Shown here: piece after piece, positions 596-60,300 of the stretch
Numbering within the stretch: the first letter of the stretch is position 1
Layout: each line of letters begins with the position of its first letter
Origin: Desulfovibrio sp.
Lineage (GTDB): Bacteria > Desulfobacterota > Desulfovibrionia > Desulfovibrionales > Desulfovibrionaceae
Length of the DNA: 64,000 bases
Assembly: GCA_031273845.1 (NCBI GenBank)
Contig: JAISRC010000162.1
Coordinates: 30,765 to 94,764, forward strand
Reading direction: 5' to 3'
Program-made: the position numbers and the translations under genes
Notes under the pieces: generated by a model
What the model was told of the DNA's origin: nothing
Database searches by the model: none
The model's input: only the letters and a program-made list of their open reading frames with translations

Positions 596-611
596 AGGCA
601 CGGGCTTTGCT
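596..611 (+). promoter_or_regulatory. sigma54 (-24/-12) promoter
   Basis: AGGCACGGGCTTTGCT has GG at 597-598 and GC at 609-610 (GG-N10-GC), matching TGGCACG-N4-TTGC. An AT-rich tract lies upstream. Confidence 0.75.
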
Positions 612-4314: not shown

Positions 4315-5160
4315 ATGCCCAAGCCCGTGTCCAAGCTCAGGTCCGGCCGGATGCCGTGCTCCGGCTTTTCAGCTTTTGCCCGCATCGCCGTGTATGTTTT
4401 CCTGTTGCCGGCCCTGTTGCTCTCGGGTTGCGCGGGCAAATACGGGGAGCAGGCCACGCAGGTGAATTACTACCCGGATTGTTACGCCCCCATAAACGAT
4501 CTGCGCGCGTCCGAGTATACCACCGTCAAGAGTGCCGGGGCCGGGGCCGCGGTCGGCGCGATTCTGGGCGCTCTGATCGGCTATGCGGCCACCGGCAAGG
4601 CCTCCGGAGCCGTTGCCGGCGCGGCGCTCGGCGGTACGGCCGGGGGCGGGGCCGGAGCGGCATACGGCTCGTATAAAAGCAAGCAGGACGAACGTGCCCG
4701 CCTGGACGAATACAACGCCCGCCTGGACGGGGACATCCGGGAAATCGACAGGGCCACGGCCGCCGCCAAAGTCGCCCGCGAGTGCTATTCCCGCCAGTTT
4801 ACAGCCGCCGTCTCCGAATTCAAGGCCGGCCATATAAGCAAAGATCAGTTCAATGACCGCCGGATCGAAATAACGCAAGGACTGGAAGAAGCCGCGAATA
4901 TCCTCGGTGAAAAAGGCAGAAGCAGCGCGCAGATCGCGGAAGAATACAACCGGGCGCTGAACAGCGGGCAGCAGGGCGCAACAGCGGGCAAAGCCTCCAG
5001 CACGGCGCGAAGCGGGTCCGGTCAGACGCGGGAGATAGCGGAGATGCGTAAAAAAGCCGCCGCCATGCAAAGCGCCGCTTCGGCGGCTCAGGACGAGGAA
5101 CGCGAACTGCGCCGCGATCTTTTGGAAAAACGCGCCCAAGCCAGGGATATTATGAGTTAG
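4315..5160 (+). CDS. TagQ-like lipoprotein with glycine zipper
   Basis: Lipobox LLSGC, glycine zipper (GAGAAVGAILGALIG...GAVAGAALGGTAGGGAG), helical C-terminus, RBS GGAGG at 4305. It co-occurs with tagR/S/T-like genes. Confidence 0.65.
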   Translation: MPKPVSKLRSGRMPCSGFSAFARIAVYVFLLPALLLSGCAGKYGEQATQVNYYPDCYAPINDLRASEYTTVKSAGAGAAVGAILGALIGYAATGKASGAVAGAALGGTAGGGAGAAYGSYKSKQDERARLDEYNARLDGDIREIDRATAAAKVARECYSRQFTAAVSEFKAGHISKDQFNDRRIEITQGLEEAANILGEKGRSSAQIAEEYNRALNSGQQGATAGKASSTARSGSGQTREIAEMRKKAAAMQSAASAAQDEERELRRDLLEKRAQARDIMS

Positions 5161-5222
5161 AGCCTGTCAAAGTCCAAAATGCTTTAAACGCCGGGGGAAG
5201 CGTCTCAAAATCAAATTGCCCT
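5158..5222 (-). mobile_element. Internally deleted family-A palindromic repeat/MITE
   Basis: The reverse complement reads agggcaatttgattttgagacgcttccccggcgtttaa-agcattttggactttgacaggctcta, i.e. both ends of the element seen at 8060, 35588 and 56375. Its end overlaps the TAG stop of the upstream gene. Confidence 0.7.
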
Positions 5223-5289
5223 GGAGCGCTTTACAGATTTCCGCAGGGAAAAAATGCTGTAAAGCCGGCATCGGACAAGGAAAGGAGTT

Positions 5290-54203: not shown

Positions 54204-54563
54204 ATGCATGAAATTTCGCTGGTCGCGTCCCTTTTGGAGATCATGCGTGATGAAATGGGCAAATACAGCGCGGGCACGCGCCTGTCCTCGGTGATTGTGC
54301 GTTGCGGCGCTTTGTCCAATGCCTTGCCCGAGGCTTTAAGCACGGCTTTCACGGTCATGACTCAGGATACGGAATTCGCCGGCGTGGATCTGGAGATTGA
54401 AGAAGATGCGTTGCGCCTTGCCTGCGGCGCATGCGGGGAAGAGTTTACGCCGGAAGATTTTCCGGTTTCGTCCCTTGCCCCGTGCCCGCGCTGCGGGGAA
54501 GAACTCGCGCACAGGGTGCTTGCCGGTAGGGAACTCTATGTGCGGCGCCTGACTATTATATAA
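54204..54563 (+). CDS. hypA: Hydrogenase maturation nickel metallochaperone
   Basis: MHEISL and two CxxC motifs (CGAC, CPRC), then GRELY. Confidence 0.94.
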   Translation: MHEISLVASLLEIMRDEMGKYSAGTRLSSVIVRCGALSNALPEALSTAFTVMTQDTEFAGVDLEIEEDALRLACGACGEEFTPEDFPVSSLAPCPRCGEELAHRVLAGRELYVRRLTII

Positions 54564-54733
54564 TTGCGAAAATAACAATATGATTTTTATGGTTATTTTT
54601 GCAGGATTGCCGGCCGAAAAATATGATTTTCAGCCGACTCACGCCGCTCCGCAACGCAAAACCTTTCCGGTTTTGTAACGTCTGTTTTTGCAGGCATGCG
54701 CTGTACAACCCTGATCCGGCACGGAGAGAAAGC

Positions 54734-55408
54734 ATGGAAAAACCTGTCGTCCGCAGCCTGCTGGAAGCCAACGACGCCGGAGCGGCGGAACTGCGTGCGC
54801 TCTTTGCGGAGCGCGGGATCGCCGTCCTCAATTTTATAGGGTCTCCGGGCGCGGGGAAAACAGCATTGCTGGAGAAGACCTTTCGGGACCTCGGCGGGGA
54901 ATTTTCCATGGCCGTCATAGAGGGTGACCCGCAAACCGACAATGACGCCCGGCGTATAGCCGCGGCCGGAGGCAGGGCCGTGCAGGTCAACACCGGGGGA
55001 GGCTGCCACCTGGACGCCGCGCTGGTGCGCAGGGCTCTGGGCGGACTGGACCTCAAGGGCCTTGACCTGCTGTTCATCGAGAATGTCGGCAACTTGGTTT
55101 GTCCTGTGGAATTCGACTGCGGGGAAGACTGCAAGGTCGCTCTGCTCAGCGTGACGGAAGGCGACGACAAACCGGAGAAATATCCCCTGCTTTTCAATCT
55201 CGCCTCCGTTATGGTTCTGAACAAGATTGATCTGCTCCCCCATGTGGACTTCAGCCTGGAGCGGGCGGAGCGTTTTGCCCGGCGGCTCAACGGGGAACTT
55301 GCGGTCCTGCCCCTGTCCTGCCGCAACGGCGAGGGGCTTGACGGCTGGTACGACTTTCTGCGCCGGGTCCGGGCGAAGAAGGCGGAACGCGCGGCGGTAG
55401 GACGGTGA
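54734..55408 (+). CDS. hypB: Hydrogenase nickel incorporation GTPase
   Basis: GSPGAGKT, IEGD, NTGGGCHL, ENVGNLVCP, EGDDKPEKYP and NKID. Start at ATG 54734. Confidence 0.96.
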   Translation: MEKPVVRSLLEANDAGAAELRALFAERGIAVLNFIGSPGAGKTALLEKTFRDLGGEFSMAVIEGDPQTDNDARRIAAAGGRAVQVNTGGGCHLDAALVRRALGGLDLKGLDLLFIENVGNLVCPVEFDCGEDCKVALLSVTEGDDKPEKYPLLFNLASVMVLNKIDLLPHVDFSLERAERFARRLNGELAVLPLSCRNGEGLDGWYDFLRRVRAKKAERAAVGR

Positions 55409-55417
55409 TCGCGGTTT

Positions 55418-55637
55418 TAGGGAAACGCTGATTTAATCGCGGCGCTGCCCCGAACCCCGCCGGGGGAAATTACTACAGGATTTTGTCCGCCTTCACTTTG
55501 TTCAGGACGGATAGGTCCCGGACCCCCTCAAATATAACCTGCTGAAATATTTATTGGGGGTGCAGGGGCATCATGCCCCTGCCAAGGGAGTTTGAGGGGA
55601 CGGAGCCTCCTCAAAGAAATAAATCAGCGTTTCCCTA
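55418..55637. mobile_element. Family-B MITE (220 bp, perfect 18-bp TIRs)
   Basis: TAGGGAAACGCTGATTTA ... TAAATCAGCGTTTCCCTA. No coding capacity for a transposase. Confidence 0.88.
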
Positions 55638-55731
55638 GATTTCCGCGTGGAAATCTGCATGTCGGCCGACGCGCCGCGAAAAATTTACTTTTCAATGCAT
55701 ATATCGGTAAAAGTTCGAACAGAGGAATGCC

Positions 55732-56340
55732 GTGCACAGTTCGAAAGAAATGCCCGCATGCGAGGACAGGACGCTGTTCGAATCCACCGTGGGCGCCGTC
55801 CGTCCCCTGCGCGGCAAAGGCCGGGCCATTCCGGTGCCGCCTGTGCGCGCAAGGCATTTGTCTGTGCCGGACAAAACTCTGGAAGCGATGCCCGCCGACG
55901 GCCTTGAATTCGCGTTGCATCACACGGATGAATATTTCGAAGGCCATGTGCCGGGCCTTGATCCCGTGATCATGGCCCGGCTGCGCGCCGGACGCTACAG
56001 CCTGGAAAAGCATCTGGATATGCACGGCATGAATGCCCGCCAAGCTTGCGACGCCTTGCACGCCTTTATCAAGGACGCCTATATGCACAGCCTGCGCTGC
56101 GTTGTGGTGGTGACAGGGAGAGGAAGAAATTCCCCCGGCGGCATCGGCATTTTGCGCCGGCTCGTGCAGAGTTGGCTCTGCCGCGCGCCCCTCAAGCGGG
56201 TGGTCCTGGCCTTTTGCACGGCCGGGGTGAACAACGGCGGCGCGGGAGCGGTCTATGTGCTGTTGCGCAGGCACAAGAAAAGCAGGGGCAAGATTGTGTG
56301 GGAGCGCGTTCCTTTTGATGAGGACTTTCAGGCATTTTAA
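55732..56340 (+). CDS. Smr/MutS2-domain protein
   Basis: LDMHGM...CVVVVTGRGRNSPGG.GILR...GGAGAVYVLLR. Confidence 0.9.
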   Translation: MHSSKEMPACEDRTLFESTVGAVRPLRGKGRAIPVPPVRARHLSVPDKTLEAMPADGLEFALHHTDEYFEGHVPGLDPVIMARLRAGRYSLEKHLDMHGMNARQACDALHAFIKDAYMHSLRCVVVVTGRGRNSPGGIGILRRLVQSWLCRAPLKRVVLAFCTAGVNNGGAGAVYVLLRRHKKSRGKIVWERVPFDEDFQAF

Positions 56341-56554: not shown

Positions 56555-58054
56555 ATGCGTATTCTCGTGGTTGACGACAACAGGGACAGCCTGCAAAGCC
56601 TTTGCCTGGTTCTCAAGGACCTCGGGCATGAACCGCGCGGCGTGGAGAGTCCTGTTGATGCCCTCGCCGCCGCGCGCAAAGAATTTTTTCCTCTGATCAT
56701 AACGGATATCCGCATGCCGGGCATGGACGGTCTGGAGCTTTTATCCCGTTTCAAGGCCGACCCGCACTGTGCCCGGTGCGATGTCGTGCTTATTACCGGC
56801 CACGGCGATATGTCCACGGCGGTCGATGCCCTGCGCAAGGGGGCCTACGACTACCTGAACAAGCCGATCAATGCGCGCGAACTTGCGGCCGTGGTTGACC
56901 GTTCCGCCGAACATCAGTCTCTGGTCATTGAAAACAGGGAACTGCACGAACATTTGGAAGAGTGCGTTTCCGAGGCCACGGCCGTTGTGCGCCGGGATTT
57001 GGAAACCGCCCGCAGGGTGCTGCGCGAGGTGGCGGGCATCGGTACCGTGATCGCCGAGTCCCAGGCCATGACCGAGCTTCTGCACGAAGCGCTGATCCTG
57101 CATTCCGAGCCTGCCGTTTCCGTGCTTATCGAGGGTGAAACCGGCACGGGGAAAGAAGTGCTCGCCCGCTACATACATAACGGCGACGGCGTAAACGACG
57201 CGCCCTTTATGGCCATCAACTGCGCCGCCATTCCCCACGAACTGTTTGAAAGCGAACTCTTCGGGCATGAGGCCGGGGCCTTTACCGGCAGCCGGGCGGA
57301 AGGCGCTCCCGGCAAACTGGAACAGGCGGGCAGGGGGACCCTCTTCCTCGACGAAGTGGCTGAAATGCCGCTGAATCTCCAACCCAAGCTTTTGCGGGTG
57401 CTGGAAGAACGCAGTTTCTACCGCGTGGGCGGCGTGAAAAAAAGGAGTTTTGCCGCGCGGGTGGTCTGCGCCGGCAACCGCGATATGTCGGATATGGTAC
57501 AGCAGGGGACGTTTCGGCGCGACCTCTATCACCGCCTGCGCGTCGGGCATTTGCGTATCCCCCCCCTGCGCGAGCGGCCGGAAGATATCCGCGCCCTTGC
57601 CGGATATTTTTTGTTGCGCGAATCGCGCAAAAGAAAAAAACATTTCAAGGGGACGGCCGCGGAAGCTCTTGAGACCCTTTTGCATTACCCATGGCCCGGC
57701 AATGTGCGGGAGTTGGAAAACACCTTGGAACGCGCCGTTCTCATGCACGATGGAGAACTGCTGACGCCCGCCCATATCGGATTTCTGTACCGGAGCGAGG
57801 GGACGGATGCCGCGGCCCCGGCGGATGCTCTCTCCGCGCCGGACCGGACGGCGGGAGCGGGGACGCTGCTGGATCTGCGCGGGAGCCTGAGTGTTGCGTT
57901 GCCGGATGAGCCGGTCAAGCTGGATGATTTTGTGGACGCGGTCATGCGCTCCGCCCTGGAGCGCTTCGCAGGCAATAAAAGCAAGGCTGCGGACTATCTG
58001 GGCATCTCGCGCTTTGCCCTGCACCGGAGAATGCAGGACAAGGAGAAGGAATAA
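56555..58054 (+). CDS. sigma54-dependent response regulator (NtrC family; REC-AAA+-Fis HTH)
   Basis: ITDIRMPGMDG, GETGTGKE, ELFGHEAGAFTG (GAFTG), LFLDEV, WPGNVREL and GNKSKAADYLGISR. Confidence 0.95.
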   Translation: MRILVVDDNRDSLQSLCLVLKDLGHEPRGVESPVDALAAARKEFFPLIITDIRMPGMDGLELLSRFKADPHCARCDVVLITGHGDMSTAVDALRKGAYDYLNKPINARELAAVVDRSAEHQSLVIENRELHEHLEECVSEATAVVRRDLETARRVLREVAGIGTVIAESQAMTELLHEALILHSEPAVSVLIEGETGTGKEVLARYIHNGDGVNDAPFMAINCAAIPHELFESELFGHEAGAFTGSRAEGAPGKLEQAGRGTLFLDEVAEMPLNLQPKLLRVLEERSFYRVGGVKKRSFAARVVCAGNRDMSDMVQQGTFRRDLYHRLRVGHLRIPPLRERPEDIRALAGYFLLRESRKRKKHFKGTAAEALETLLHYPWPGNVRELENTLERAVLMHDGELLTPAHIGFLYRSEGTDAAAPADALSAPDRTAGAGTLLDLRGSLSVALPDEPVKLDDFVDAVMRSALERFAGNKSKAADYLGISRFALHRRMQDKEKE

Positions 58055-58088
58055 TTCCTGTTCCAAAGCAAACATACCTTGATTCCAT

Positions 58089-58160
58089 ATAAGGCAATTT
58101 GATTTTGAGACGCCTCCTCTTTGAAGTGCTCAAAACGGCCGGTAAAAGCGCCTTGTGCAA
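58089..58160 (+). mobile_element. Partial family-A repeat
   Basis: taaggcaatttgattttgagacgcctcct, after which it diverges. Confidence 0.7.
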
Positions 58161-58172
58161 GCGGAGTTCGGG

Positions 58173-58216
58173 ATATGTGCAAACTCTGCCGATTATTTTG
58201 CACATATGTGCAAAAT
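58173..58216. promoter_or_regulatory. Candidate enhancer (UAS) for a sigma54 activator
   Basis: Perfect 22-bp palindrome ATTTTGCACAT-ATGTGCAAAAT (58195-58216) plus an extra half-site ATATGTGCAAA (58173-58183). Confidence 0.6.
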
Positions 58217-58275
58217 ATGGCATATCAGAACAGCCTCTGTGATATATCAGACTGTCTTTACATTATTTTTACGTC

Positions 58276-58291
58276 AGGCATGATATATGCA
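58276..58291 (+). promoter_or_regulatory. sigma54 (-24/-12) promoter
   Basis: AGGCATGATATATGCA has GG at 58277-78 and GC at 58289-90 (N10), about 60 bp downstream of the palindrome. Confidence 0.65.
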
Positions 58292-58301
58292 TATTTTCTG
58301 T

Positions 58302-58500
58302 CGAAATTGAAGTGTGACGATATTGCTCCTCCTCTCAATAGATCGTTGCACAACCCGGTCGGGTGTTTACTCTCCGCCCGACCGGGGGAGCCGGCGGCGC
58401 TTCACTTGCAAGCCGCGCTGTACTCGGCTGAAAAGAAACAAAGGACCCGTTTTCAGGGATGGGAAGGCGGCAGTCAAATTGCCGCCTTCTTCTCGTTTTT
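58302..58500 (+). ncRNA. Candidate sigma54-dependent small RNA (~200 nt)
   Basis: Lies between a sigma54 promoter and a terminator hairpin. It has internal stems (58354-63/58377-86, 58428-34/58450-56), a CU-rich CTCCTCCT motif, and no credible ORF. Confidence 0.5.
58463..58500 (+). terminator. Intrinsic terminator-like hairpin
   Basis: GAAGGCGGCA-N7-TGCCGCCTTC followed by TTCTCGTTTTT. Confidence 0.7.
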
Positions 58501-58527
58501 GGAATGGTCGTCCGGCGCATTTTCTGC

Positions 58528-58555
58528 TTGACATGCCCGCCGGTTGTGCTATTTT
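58528..58555 (+). promoter_or_regulatory. sigma70 promoter of the trp operon
   Basis: TTGACA (58528-33), 16 bp, then TG-c-TATTTT (extended -10). Confidence 0.7.
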
Positions 58556-58593
58556 GTGAGCCCCCAACGGGAAATATTTGCATAGGAAAGACC

Positions 58594-58713
58594 ATGAGCA
58601 CCTTTTCGCACAACACGCACATTTACAGCACAGCCTTTGTCCGGCGCGGATCTCTGCGCTTCGGTTCCTGGTGGCGCGGCATTGTCCGCGGTCTGCCGGA
58701 GGCTGTGCGCTGA
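58594..58713 (+). CDS. trpL: trp operon leader peptide (39 aa)
   Basis: MSTFSHNTHIYSTAFVRRGSLRFGSWWRGIVRGLPEAVR, with tandem TGG TGG at 58669-58674 and RBS AGGAAAG. Confidence 0.75.
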   Translation: MSTFSHNTHIYSTAFVRRGSLRFGSWWRGIVRGLPEAVR

Positions 58714-58740
58714 CGCGCATTAATACATGAACCTTTCCGG

Positions 58741-58770
58741 GCCGCGGGCATATTGTCCGCGGCTTTTTTT
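58741..58770 (+). terminator. trp attenuator terminator
   Basis: GCCGCGG-N9-CCGCGGC followed by T7. Confidence 0.85.
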
Positions 58771-58821
58771 ACGGCATTTCACGCCTGAGACAGTTGCTTA
58801 CAGCCCATAAAGGAAGTTGTG

Positions 58822-60300
58822 ATGAGCATTACCCTGCAACAGAATGTTTCTTTTCTGCAAAGCGATGTGGAAACGCCGATCAGCCTGTTTCTTCGTCTGG
58901 CGGGCGAGGGGCAGGGCATTCTGCTGGAAAGCGCGGAAGTCGGCGGACGTTGGGGGCGGTACAGCATCATAGCCGCCGATTTTATCCTCTGTCTGCTTTG
59001 CCGCGCCGGCAAGCTGGACCTTTCCGTAACGGACGGCCGCCTGGAATCCCTGCGCATCCTGCACGGGTTGCCGTTCCTGGACGGATTGCGGGCGCTTATG
59101 CATGAACTGCGCATAATTCCCGCGCGCGCCGTACCAGGACCGGTCGGCGGGGGGACGGATGCGGACTTTTTTCCCTCCATTACCCGCGCGCTCTATGGAT
59201 ACCTGGGCTACGGCTGCGCCGGACTCCTGGAACCGAAACTGGCTCCTCTCCTGCCGCCGGAGGAAGCCGAAGCCTGTCTGGCACTGCCCGGAACGCTGAT
59301 TCTTTTTGATCACGCTTACAACAGGGTTTGCCGCCTTTCCCTCAATCAGGACAGGGCGGGGGACGCGGAGGATGCGCTTCTGTCTTCCCGTTGCGGCACG
59401 CGGGGAGATTTTGCTCTGCATCCGGCCGGTATCGGGCAGATCGAGGCAAGCGCCGACAAGAATACCTATCTGGGCGCCGTCAGGCGCCTCAAGGAACAGA
59501 TACGTCTGGGAGAAGCCATACAGGTAGTGCCGTCCGTCGGCTTCAGCGCCGGCTTCAGCGGCGATCCCTTTACCGTCTACCGGCGTCTGCGCCGCATCAA
59601 CCCTTCCCCGTATATGTTTTTTATGCGTCTGCCGGGCATCATTCTGATGGGTTCCTCGCCGGAGGTCATGGTCAGTTGCGCGGGGGACAAACTGCACCTT
59701 TGCCCCATAGCCGGGACAAGGCCGCGCGGGGACGGGCCGGTCGAGGACAATCTGTTTGAGGAAGAACTGGCCGGAGACCCCAAGGAACAAGCCGAGCACG
59801 TGATGCTGGTCGATCTGGGCCGCAACGACCTCGGGCGCATATCCATGCCCGGCAGCGTGGTGCTGGATCGCTACATGGAGGTGGAGCGCTTTTCCCACGT
59901 CATGCATCTGACCTCGCACGTCAGTTCCCTGCTCACGCCGGGACTGGACGCGATCGACGTGCTGCGGGCGGTTTTTCCGGCAGGCACGGTGAGCGGCGCG
60001 CCCAAGATCCGGGCCATGGAACTGCTGGCCGAAGAAGAAAAACGCCCGCGCGGTCCCTATGCCGGGGCAGTCGGCTGGATCGGGCTGGGCGGGGAGGGCG
60101 TGCATATGGACACGGGCATAACCATACGCAGTCTCTGGATACGCGGCGGACGCGCCTTCTGGCAGGCCGGGGGAGGAGTGGTCTACGATTCCTCGCCCGA
60201 AGCGGAATGGAAGGAGATCGTCAACAAGGCGGCCGTGGTCAAGGCCGCGCTTTCAGGTGCCGAGGCCCGCACGGGAGGCAGCAATGTTTCTGCTCATTGA
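58822..60300 (+). CDS. trpE: Anthranilate synthase component I
   Basis: LLESAE, NPSPYM, PIAGTRPRG, EHVMLVDLGRND, FPAGTVSGAPK and QAGGGVV. Confidence 0.95.
   Translation: MSITLQQNVSFLQSDVETPISLFLRLAGEGQGILLESAEVGGRWGRYSIIAADFILCLLCRAGKLDLSVTDGRLESLRILHGLPFLDGLRALMHELRIIPARAVPGPVGGGTDADFFPSITRALYGYLGYGCAGLLEPKLAPLLPPEEAEACLALPGTLILFDHAYNRVCRLSLNQDRAGDAEDALLSSRCGTRGDFALHPAGIGQIEASADKNTYLGAVRRLKEQIRLGEAIQVVPSVGFSAGFSGDPFTVYRRLRRINPSPYMFFMRLPGIILMGSSPEVMVSCAGDKLHLCPIAGTRPRGDGPVEDNLFEEELAGDPKEQAEHVMLVDLGRNDLGRISMPGSVVLDRYMEVERFSHVMHLTSHVSSLLTPGLDAIDVLRAVFPAGTVSGAPKIRAMELLAEEEKRPRGPYAGAVGWIGLGGEGVHMDTGITIRSLWIRGGRAFWQAGGGVVYDSSPEAEWKEIVNKAAVVKAALSGAEARTGGSNVSAH

What the first reader, a model, noticed from the sequence alone, without database searches (positions are those of the whole stretch)
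56555..58500. NtrC-type regulator followed by enhancer, sigma54 promoter and a structured non-coding RNA: LuxO/Qrr-like module
Seen downstream of an orphan sigma54 response regulator: a perfect 22-bp palindrome plus a third half-site (58173-58216), an AT-rich spacer, a GG-N10-GC promoter (58277-58290), then ~200 nt with no credible ORF. That stretch has a single-stranded CTCCTCCT anti-Shine-Dalgarno-like motif (58326-58333), a perfect 10-bp stem, a further stem and a 10-bp terminator hairpin ending just before the separate sigma70 trp promoter. Known: Vibrio LuxO activates sigma54-dependent Qrr sRNAs, one encoded next to luxO. Inference: a two-component-controlled base-pairing sRNA that blocks RBSs of target mRNAs. 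It should be compared with sRNAs already reported in Desulfovibrio before being called new.
Basis: partly seen in the sequence, partly recalled or inferred. Interest (0 to 1): 0.8.

Follow-up and report, generated by a model that had tools for sequence, protein, structure and literature searches.

The report
Regulator-controlled sigma-54 small RNA gene
Right after a two-component response-regulator gene sits that regulator's binding site, a sigma-54 promoter and a ~200-nt structured non-coding RNA; the same kind of regulator-plus-small-RNA pair has been published for Desulfovibrio (DVU0679 and its ncRNA), so this is a new, sequence-divergent member of a known kind whose cellular targets remain unknown.

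Summary
These are an NtrC-type regulator, clustered TTTGCACA half-sites, a GG-N10-GC promoter, about 200 nt without a conserved ORF, three hairpins and a terminator.

Comparative evidence supports a functional unit. In 15 of 24 distinct orthologous regulator loci, an enhancer, a sigma-54 promoter and a hairpin-rich RNA lie next to the regulator gene. The downstream genes differ between loci. The cassette is inverted in two lineages and duplicated in one.

In the window's own clade, 11 of 33 stem pairs show compensatory changes. The loop motifs UCCUCCU and CACUUGCA are invariant.

The regulator is 61-67% identical to regulators that sit beside the published binding sites of the DVU0679 regulog. 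The G20 sites match exactly and the Miyazaki sites match with one mismatch each. That regulog has a published target, an ncRNA called Dv-sRNA2. The module is therefore a divergent member of a described system.

Across the family, hairpin loops are 56% C and 4% G. This fits pairing with G-rich ribosome-binding sites, but no target was identified, and a protein-sponge role is not excluded. No Rfam family covers these RNAs. I rate it a new member of a known kind, of moderate interest.

The parts
56555..58054 (+). NtrC-family sigma-54 enhancer-binding response regulator (REC - AAA+ - HTH_8; GAFTGS loop), in the same family as Dde_2952 and DvMF_2679 of the DVU0679 regulog
   Evidence: Pfam domains. 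GAFTGS/GAYTGS loop across homologues. It is 61-67% identical over its full length to the regulators that sit beside the published G20 and Miyazaki sites.
58155..58162 (.). Distal enhancer half-site TTGTGCAA, at about -144 from the predicted start
   Evidence: Conserved position and sequence in L081, L171, L082 and L172.
58173..58183 (.). Enhancer half-site ATATGTGCAAA, at about -124
   Evidence: Inverted repeat I2. TGTGCA is invariant in five loci.
58194..58217 (.). Perfect 24-bp palindrome TATTTTGCACAT/ATGTGCAAAATA (two half-sites), centred at about -96
   Evidence: Inverted repeat I1, 100% complementary. ATTTTGCACA..T.TGCAA is invariant in five loci. TTTGCACA is clustered far above chance.
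58218..58275 (.). AT-rich spacer between enhancer and promoter, a possible DNA-bending region
   Evidence: Sequence. Its length is conserved but its sequence is not. No IHF site was demonstrated.
58276..58291 (+). Sigma-54 promoter aGGCATGatatATGCA (-24 GG at 58277-58278, -12 GC at 58289-58290)
   Evidence: Pattern match, 2 in the window against 0.41 expected. GGCA...TGC is invariant at the same distance from the enhancer in five loci. Stronger TGGCACG-N4-TTGCW versions occur in other lineages.
58302..58500 (+). Predicted small RNA of about 199 nt; the 5' end is inferred from the promoter and the 3' end from the terminator
   Evidence: Fold z = -4.18. No conserved ORF. Covariance model R1 hits only this position in the window. 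No Rfam family matches.
58312..58351 (+). Hairpin 1, with apical loop CUCCUCCUCU at 58326-58335 (anti-Shine-Dalgarno-like)
   Evidence: MFE fold. UCCUCCU is invariant while the stem shows 4-5 compensatory pairs.
58354..58386 (+). Hairpin 2, a 12-bp stem with loop UUUACUCUC at 58366-58374
   Evidence: Inverted repeat I5. -26 kcal/mol, z = -4.3. Five compensatory pairs across clades.
58389..58429 (+). Hairpin 3, whose loop carries the invariant CACUUGCA at 58403-58410
   Evidence: The single-sequence fold is not exceptional on its own (z = -1.1). Support comes from conservation and covariation.
58461..58500 (+). Intrinsic terminator: a 14-bp stem at 58461-58491 and a U-run at 58496-58500
   Evidence: Terminator scan. 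z = -5.0. Equivalent terminators end the RNA in every relative.

Best explanation
This is a self-contained small-RNA gene controlled by the response regulator encoded just upstream.

**Proposed mechanism (inferred steps):**
- When phosphorylated by a histidine kinase that is not adjacent in this clade, the regulator oligomerises on four TTYGCAC-type half-sites at about -145 to -90.
- It contacts sigma-54 RNA polymerase bound at the -24/-12 promoter (58277-58290).
- It uses ATP hydrolysis to open the promoter.
- Transcription starts near 58302 and stops at the intrinsic terminator near 58500, giving a non-coding RNA of about 200 nt.

**RNA anatomy (shown):** the RNA has three conserved hairpins. 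Their stems covary and their loops are fixed: CUCCUCCUC, CUCUCC and CACUUGCA.

**Action of the RNA (inferred):** it most likely works in trans. The C/U-rich, G-free loops would pair with G-rich Shine-Dalgarno regions of target mRNAs and change their translation or stability.

**Shown here:** the sequence features, their conservation as a unit beside orthologous regulators, stem covariation, and family membership of the regulator.

**Taken from the literature:** Rajeev et al. report a validated binding-site motif for DVU0679, DAP-chip enrichment of the locus, and expression of the adjacent sRNA in D. vulgaris.

**My confidence by part:** about 0.85-0.9 that it is a regulator- and sigma-54-dependent non-coding RNA gene, and about 0.5 that it works by pairing with ribosome-binding sites.
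For: - **Features and statistics:**
- **Module next to orthologous regulators:** present in 15 of 24 distinct loci, with unrelated downstream genes (trpE, phosphoglucomutase, cupin, periplasmic binding protein, ABC/BioY).
- **Cassette rearrangements:** inverted as a unit in L082 and L172; tandemly duplicated in L098.
- **Enhancer and promoter register:** half-sites and promoter lie in register in five loci.
- **Covariation:** 11 of 33 pairs have changes on both sides. 89.7% of cells are paired against 30-48% in slid controls, and 0 of 500 shuffles reach the observed values.
- **Non-coding:** no shared ORF, and a 1-nt indel lies inside the conserved core.
- **Link to the published regulog:** L101 carries both published G20 Dde_2952 sites exactly, about 17 nt after the stop of a GAYTGS regulator that is 61% identical to the window's. 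L100 carries the Miyazaki sites with one mismatch each, beside a regulator that is 67% identical.
- **Literature:** PMC3333781 and PMC4641369.
- **Loop composition:** hairpin loops of 13 family RNAs are 56% C and 4% G, against 35% and 23% overall. The window's loop contains CCUCC, which from established knowledge is the core of the 16S rRNA anti-Shine-Dalgarno sequence.
Against: - There are no expression data for this organism. The 5' end is only predicted.
- The window's promoter is weaker than the consensus (ATGCA rather than TTGCA at -12, and A before the GG).
- The half-site here (TTTGCACA) differs from the published CGCACG type, so binding by this regulator is inferred.
- Nine of 24 orthologous loci show no module within about 1.1 kb downstream. 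Some of these have short flanks.
- No significant target was found. The best start-region duplex in the window (trpG, -20.1 kcal/mol) is matched by 30 of 200 shuffled loops.
- Covariance model R1 does not detect the poly-C RNAs of other lineages. Homology of the RNAs across the family therefore rests on position, not sequence.
- The DNA-binding-domain string printed for DVU0679 in Additional file 2 of PMC4641369 does not resemble this family. I could not fetch D. vulgaris Hildenborough DNA to resolve this.
Confidence: 0.7

Rival explanations
1. The RNA is a protein sponge rather than a base-pairing regulator. Its repeated C-rich loops (three or four poly-C loops in most lineages, CUCCUCC and CUCUCC here) would titrate an RNA-binding protein. 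CrcZ, encoded directly downstream of cbrB and transcribed from a sigma-54 promoter, does this to Hfq/Crc through repeated A-rich motifs.
For: The family shows near-identical C-rich loops repeated in one RNA. The synteny and promoter type match CbrB-CrcZ (PMC6292655). No mRNA target was found.
Against: To my knowledge, no bacterial protein is known to bind poly-C or CCUCC loops in this lineage. In the window's clade only two loops are C/U-rich, and a third, different loop (CACUUGCA) is equally conserved. This fits distinct seed regions better than a repeated protein-binding motif.
Confidence: 0.2
2. The transcript is a 5' leader or extra promoter for the downstream trp operon, not an independent RNA.
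For: In the window, L081 and L171 the trp leader and trpE follow on the same strand.
Against: A strong terminator (z = -5.0) ends the RNA. The trp operon has its own sigma-70-like promoter, a Trp-Trp leader peptide and an attenuator. In other lineages the same cassette precedes unrelated genes, faces the opposite way or is convergent with the regulator.
Confidence: 0.03
3. The region encodes a small protein, and the hairpins are incidental.
For: Short ORFs exist in individual sequences, for example 50 aa in L081 and 49 aa in L172.
Against: No ORF is shared in frame or sequence between lineages. The window has none above 22 aa on the transcribed strand and L082 has none of 12 aa or more. A 1-nt indel lies in the conserved core. 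Conservation is concentrated in loops, and the stems change in a compensatory way.
Confidence: 0.02
4. The motifs are chance matches in an intergenic region and no regulated RNA is made.
For: Consensus scans alone are weak evidence. The terminator-like count in the region equals the shuffled expectation, and hairpin 3 alone is not exceptional.
Against: The half-sites are clustered. The enhancer-promoter register is conserved across clades with 60-82% regulator identity. The stems covary. The orthologous system has experimental support in D. vulgaris (PMC3333781).
Confidence: 0.03

Closest known systems
DVU0679 ('LuxO')-ncRNA (Dv-sRNA2) regulog of Desulfovibrio (Rajeev et al. 2011, PMC3333781; Kazakov et al. 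2015, PMC4641369)
   Same: - Same regulator family: REC-AAA+-HTH_8 with a GA[FY]TGS loop, 61-67% identical to the G20-type and Miyazaki-type members.
- Enhancer built from GTGC/GCAC-core half-sites.
- A sigma-54 promoter.
- A non-coding RNA encoded immediately beside the regulator gene.
   Different: - The half-site is TTTGCACA, arranged as a 24-bp palindrome plus two single half-sites about 22 bp apart. The published sites are overlapping CGTGCG-N4-CGCACG 16-mers.
- The RNA has CUCCUCCUC, CUCUCC and CACUUGCA loops, not poly-C loops. A covariance model does not detect it as similar to the G20-type or Miyazaki-type RNAs.
- No histidine kinase gene lies upstream.
- The D. vulgaris Hildenborough sequence itself could not be compared.
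LuxO-Qrr of Vibrio (Rfam Qrr)
   Same: Both have an NtrC-type response regulator that activates sigma-54-dependent small RNAs. From established knowledge, one qrr gene lies next to luxO in Vibrio, some species have multiple copies (compare the L098 duplication), and the RNAs are multi-hairpin trans-acting regulators.
   Different: There is no sequence or structure match to Qrr. The regulator family and binding motif differ. The RNA is about 200 nt, whereas Qrr is about 100 nt. Hfq dependence and a quorum-sensing input are unknown here.
CbrB-CrcZ of Pseudomonas and Azotobacter
   Same: The sRNA gene lies directly downstream of the NtrC-family regulator gene. It has an RpoN-dependent promoter activated by that regulator, and a motif repeated along the RNA (PMC6292655).
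   Different: CrcZ carries A-rich Hfq-binding motifs and acts as a protein sponge. Here the loops are C/U-rich, and there is no sequence similarity.
Nla19-Pxr of Myxococcus
   Same: [quoted passage not shown] It has a predicted sigma-54 promoter and a triple stem-loop RNA, and some genera carry tandem paralogues (PMC5568312).
   Different: It comes from a different phylum. Pxr is about 108 nt.
C-rich or anti-SD loop sRNAs: alphaproteobacterial ar14/NfeR1 (RF02344), Firmicutes RsaE/RoxS
   Same: Both have hairpins that present CCUCC or C-rich loops. From established knowledge, in those systems the loops pair with Shine-Dalgarno regions. The only weak Rfam resemblance in this region is to ar14, aligned on the CUCCUCCUC loop.
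   Different: The ar14 score is 21.4 bits against a gathering score of 58.8, so it is not a member. The promoters and regulators are unrelated.

Membership tests
DVU0679-type regulator / ncRNA regulog (Desulfovibrionaceae) | The regulator is an orthologue of DVU0679 / Dde_2952 / DvMF_2679: REC - sigma-54 AAA+ - HTH_8 with a GAYTGS-type loop | tested here: met
   Domains and GAFTGS loop. It is 61% and 67% identical over its full length to the regulators in L101 and L100, which sit beside the published G20 sites (exact) and Miyazaki sites (1 mismatch). Caveat: the DVU0679 DNA-binding-domain string in PMC4641369 Additional file 2 does not fit.
DVU0679-type regulator / ncRNA regulog (Desulfovibrionaceae) | Enhancer of CGTGCG-N4-CGCACG-type sites upstream of the ncRNA promoter | tested here: inconclusive
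   The GCAC/GTGC core and the -90 to -145 position are shared. However, the window clade uses TTTGCACA half-sites in a different arrangement. L083, L086 and L089 have the published type.
DVU0679-type regulator / ncRNA regulog (Desulfovibrionaceae) | Sigma-54 -24/-12 promoter driving a non-coding RNA adjacent to the regulator gene | tested here: met
DVU0679-type regulator / ncRNA regulog (Desulfovibrionaceae) | The RNA is homologous in sequence or structure to Dv-sRNA2 and its G20 and Miyazaki counterparts | tested here: not met
   Model R1 finds only window-clade RNAs and gives no hit in L100, L101, L089, L175, L083, L093, L094 or L098. The shared property is C-rich, G-poor loops only. The Dv-sRNA2 sequence itself was not available.
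DVU0679-type regulator / ncRNA regulog (Desulfovibrionaceae) | Regulator binds the site and the RNA is expressed | not testable with these tools
   For D. vulgaris, PMC3333781 reports a validated binding-site motif, DAP-chip enrichment and tiling-array expression. Nothing is available for this organism.
Qrr (Vibrio quorum regulatory RNA, Rfam) | Match to the Qrr covariance model (conserved region of about 32 nt, four stem-loops) | tested here: not met
   No Qrr hit at the gathering threshold in the window, nor at E <= 10 in 57900-58900.
Qrr (Vibrio quorum regulatory RNA, Rfam) | Sigma-54 promoter activated by a LuxO-type response regulator | tested here: inconclusive
   A promoter and an adjacent NtrC-type regulator are present. 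Orthology to Vibrio LuxO was not tested. 'luxO' is only an annotation label for DVU0679.
ar14 / alphaproteobacterial CCUCCUCCC sRNAs (RF02344) | Score at or above the Rfam gathering threshold | tested here: not met
   21.4 bits against 58.8, E = 0.13.
CrcZ-type sponge sRNA | Repeated A-rich (CA) Hfq/Crc-binding motifs | tested here: not met
   Loops are C/U-rich, with A at 17% and C at 56%.
Pxr (Myxococcus) | Sequence or structure homology to Pxr, and regulator orthologous to Nla19 | not tested
   Only the published synteny was compared.

The most novel reading that the evidence does not exclude
The window RNA may belong to a Desulfovibrionaceae-wide class of two-component- and sigma-54-controlled 'C-rich-loop' RNAs that has no Rfam entry.

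- The regulator, the enhancer position and the promoter stay fixed across the family.
- The RNA body turns over so fast that sub-families are no longer alignable. Most carry poly-C loops; this one carries CUCCUCC.
- The class could act as a global translational brake by mimicking the 16S anti-Shine-Dalgarno sequence. Alternatively it could be a sponge for an unknown protein that binds C-rich loops.
- The loss of the adjacent kinase and the change of half-site in this clade would mark a rewired branch of the system.
Probability: 0.35. Interest if true: 0.55.

Novelty: new member of a known kind. Interest (0 to 1): 0.38.

Why it matters
Desulfovibrio species carry unusually many sigma-54 activators, and several of them are reported to control only a small RNA whose function is unknown. 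This locus extends the DVU0679-type pair to Desulfovibrio lineages known mostly from metagenome assemblies.

It also shows how the pair evolves. The half-site changes, the cassette is inverted or duplicated, and the adjacent kinase gene is lost.

Finally, it gives a concrete handle for finding targets. The conserved single-stranded loops (UCCUCCU and CACUUGCA here, poly-C elsewhere) can be mutated directly. Identifying the targets would show what signal-to-translation circuit these sulfate reducers run through sigma-54. Because the arrangement is already published, the finding refines existing knowledge; it does not open a new topic.

Tried and rejected
1. **Genome-contig scan with the full regulator:** the generic receiver pattern DIRMPGMD saturated it.
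2. **Metagenome-contig scan with a C-terminal alignment:** About 13 true orthologue loci were still usable, including the decisive L100 and L101.
3. **Search with the 42-aa DVU0679 DNA-binding-domain string from PMC4641369:** it found nothing, so the discrepancy with that table is unresolved.
4. **Rfam:** no family matches at the gathering threshold in the window or in 12 related loci. Only a sub-threshold ar14 resemblance appeared.
5. **Covariance model R1 of the window clade:** it recovered only its own five training sequences. There is no second copy in the window and no detectable homology to the poly-C sub-families.
6. **Target scan of 170 candidate start regions in the window with the hairpin 1 loop:** the best hit was the trpG start, but 30 of 200 shuffled loops do as well, so I rejected it as evidence.
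7. **Coding hypothesis:** rejected.
8. **trp-leader hypothesis:** rejected because of the terminator, the separate trp promoter, leader peptide and attenuator, and the varying neighbours in other loci.
9. **Sigma-70-like match overlapping the promoter (58257-58284, 9/12):** not conserved in relatives.
Full report
**Observation**

The region reads as the first-stage reader described it.
- The ORF at 56555-58054 encodes a 499-aa protein with Response_reg, Sigma54_activat, AAA_lid_14 and HTH_8 domains. Its sigma-54 contact loop reads GAFTGS.
- About 100 nt past the stop codon lies a perfect 24-bp palindrome, TATTTTGCACAT/ATGTGCAAAATA (58194-58217). A further half-site lies at 58173-58183.
- Three of the four TTTGCACA 8-mers in the whole 64-kb window fall within these 39 bp. 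Chance would give 1.55 in the whole window.
- GGCATGatatATGCA at 58277-58291 is one of two matches in the window to a relaxed -24/-12 pattern (0.41 expected).
- The next ~200 nt fold into three hairpins plus a terminator at -84.2 kcal/mol. The z-score is -4.18 and 0 of 200 shuffles fold as well.
- CUCCUCCUCU forms the apical loop of the first hairpin. Hairpin 2 (z = -4.3) and the terminator (z = -5.0) are exceptional on their own.
- A sigma-70-like promoter (58528-58555), a 39-codon leader peptide with tandem Trp (58594-58713), an attenuator-like terminator (58739-58765) and trpE, trpG-D and trpC follow. The trp operon therefore has its own control region.

**Does the unit travel with the regulator?**

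A protein search found a dense set of orthologues at 58-82% identity, all from Desulfovibrionaceae and all with GA[FY]TGS. I fetched DNA around a sample of them. I also ran a metagenome scan with the C-terminal DNA-binding region.

In 15 of 24 distinct loci the same three elements lie beside the regulator gene:
- a cluster of four to six GCAC/GTGC half-sites;
- 40-150 nt further on, a strong sigma-54 promoter, usually TGGCACG-N4-TTGCW;
- a 140-220-nt hairpin-rich stretch ending in a terminator.

The genes beyond the cassette differ between loci: trpE, phosphoglucomutase, a cupin on the other strand, a periplasmic binding protein, and ABC/BioY. In L082 and L172 the whole cassette is inverted and convergent with the regulator gene. 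In L098 it is duplicated in tandem. The unit therefore belongs to the regulator and not to the trp operon. Nine loci showed no cassette within about 1.1 kb downstream, and some of these have short flanks.

**The window's own clade**

Five sequences from three or four lineages align from enhancer to terminator: window, L081, L171, L082 and L172.
- The four half-sites and the promoter sit in the same register.
- In the RNA, UCCUCCU (hairpin 1 loop) and CACUUGCA (hairpin 3 loop) are invariant, while the stems change.
- RNAalifold recovers hairpins 1-3.
- On a core alignment, 11 of 33 pairs have changes on both sides. 89.7% of cells are paired against 30-48% when partners are slid, and 0 of 500 shuffles reach the observed values. 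With five related sequences this is decent support, not overwhelming.
- No ORF is shared between lineages, and a 1-nt indel sits in the conserved core. The RNA is non-coding.
- A covariance model built from the core finds a single copy in the window. It finds nothing in the other sub-families.

**What it corresponds to in the literature**

Rajeev et al. 2011 (PMC3333781) mapped the targets of D. vulgaris response regulators.
- They reported that DVU0679 has as its target an sRNA just downstream of its own gene, Dv-sRNA2. DVU0679 is labelled 'luxO' in their gene table and its kinase is DVU0680.
- They describe the binding-site motif as validated, report DAP-chip enrichment of the locus, and cite tiling-array data for expression of the sRNA. 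They state that its function is unknown.

Kazakov et al. 2015 (PMC4641369) list four ncRNAs in the sigma-54 regulome. They give the DVU0679 regulog sites in three genomes, with 'ncRNA' as the target.

The link to this window is direct.
- Locus L101 contains both published G20 (Dde_2952) 16-mers, exactly and at the published 14-bp spacing. They start about 17 nt after the stop of a GAYTGS regulator that is 61% identical to the window's regulator over its full length.
- L100 contains the Miyazaki sites with one mismatch each, beside a regulator that is 67% identical.
- L083, L086 and L089 also have AGTGCG-N4-CGCACG-type sites.

The window's regulator therefore belongs to this family.

One discrepancy remains. 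The DNA-binding-domain string printed for DVU0679 in Additional file 2 of the 2015 paper does not resemble this family. A search with that string found nothing.

**What distinguishes this member**

- The half-site is TTTGCACA rather than (A/T)TCGCACG, and the arrangement differs. It is a 24-bp palindrome plus two single half-sites about 22 bp apart.
- No kinase gene is adjacent. hypA, a CobW/HypB-like GTPase and an Smr protein lie upstream. Relatives have an overlapping PAS-HisKA kinase gene.
- The RNA differs. In 13 family RNAs the predicted hairpin loops are 56% C and 4% G, against 35% and 23% overall. Most lineages carry three or four C6-C9 loops.
- The window clade has CUCCUCCUC, CUCUCC and CACUUGCA loops in place of the poly-C loops.
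- No Rfam family covers any of these RNAs. The only faint resemblance is to alphaproteobacterial ar14, aligned on the CUCCUCCUC loop. It scores 21.4 bits against a threshold of 58.8.

**Mechanism**

Activation by the adjacent regulator through sigma-54 is well supported by anatomy, conservation and the published work on the orthologous system.

How the RNA acts is inference. G-free, C/U-rich apical loops containing CCUCC are what one expects of seeds that pair with Shine-Dalgarno regions. From established knowledge, this is how RsaE/RoxS and ar14/NfeR1 work.

I could not identify a target. The best duplex with a start region in the window (trpG) is no better than shuffled loops give, and the rest of the genome is not available.

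The main rival is a protein sponge, by analogy with CrcZ. CrcZ lies directly downstream of cbrB, is RpoN-dependent, and carries repeated protein-binding motifs (PMC6292655). The repeated poly-C loops of other lineages fit that picture. The window's three different conserved loops fit it less well.

Pxr of Myxococcus is another published parallel. It lies downstream of the sigma-54 regulator gene nla19, has a sigma-54 promoter and three stem-loops, and occurs as tandem paralogues in some genera (PMC5568312).

**Verdict**

The locus is not a Qrr family member. It is a divergent member of the published DVU0679-type regulator/ncRNA pair of Desulfovibrio. I rate it a new member of a known kind, of moderate interest. 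Its main value lies in the conserved loop motifs and the evolutionary variation, which make the still-unknown function of this RNA class testable.

Noticed in passing
window 58528-58765: The trp operon has a full attenuation-type control region of its own. It comprises a sigma-70-like promoter (58528-58555), a 39-codon leader peptide with tandem Trp (58594-58713, ...GSWWRG...) and a terminator hairpin (58739-58765) before trpE (58822). L081 has the same layout.
   Followed up: partly
window 597-611: A second match to the sigma-54 -24/-12 pattern (GGCACGGGCTTTGCT) on the + strand. I did not examine its downstream target or look for an enhancer.
   Followed up: no
L098 1750-2443: Two tandem copies of enhancer, sigma-54 promoter (1881 and 2360) and a poly-C-loop RNA lie downstream of one regulator gene. 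This resembles the multi-copy qrr and pxr loci. The second copy is cut by the contig end.
   Followed up: partly
L176 4560-5260 (Megalodesulfovibrio gigas): The sigma-54 promoter (about 4585) is followed first by a 114-aa ORF with no Pfam match (4630-4974), and only then by the C-rich hairpins (about 5010-5250). The RNA may be 3'-UTR-derived there, or the ORF call may be spurious.
   Followed up: partly
L082 5600-5925 and L172 1910-2295: The whole enhancer-promoter-RNA cassette is inverted relative to the regulator gene, so the RNA is convergent with it. The internal spacing is unchanged.
   Followed up: yes
PMC4641369 Additional file 2, compared with L100 and L101: The DNA-binding-domain string listed for DVU0679 (FRDALCVDYLNELMRRCNGDTVEACTLSGLSRSHLYEMLRRY) does not resemble the C-termini of the regulators beside the published G20 and Miyazaki sites (GNKSKAAAYLGISRFALHRRLQK). 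The closest string in that table is DVU0744. This is unresolved.
   Followed up: partly
window 58222-58251: A direct repeat ATATCAGA occurs twice, 22 bp apart, in the AT-rich spacer between enhancer and promoter. It is not conserved in L081 or L171. A role in DNA bending is possible but unsupported.
   Followed up: no
window 58405-58412: The hairpin 3 loop contains the self-complementary octamer CUUGCAAG (UUGCAA in L082 and L172, only UGCA in L081). This would allow loop-loop dimerisation, or it may be coincidence.
   Followed up: no
window 54204-56337: Upstream of the regulator lie hypA, a CobW/HypB-type GTPase and an Smr-domain gene. The CobW-type and Smr genes also precede the regulator in L171, and the Smr gene in L081. 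This replaces the PAS histidine kinase found upstream in other lineages.
   Followed up: partly
L100 3149-3307: An FMN riboswitch (91 bits) lies directly downstream of the poly-C RNA in the Miyazaki-like locus.
   Followed up: no
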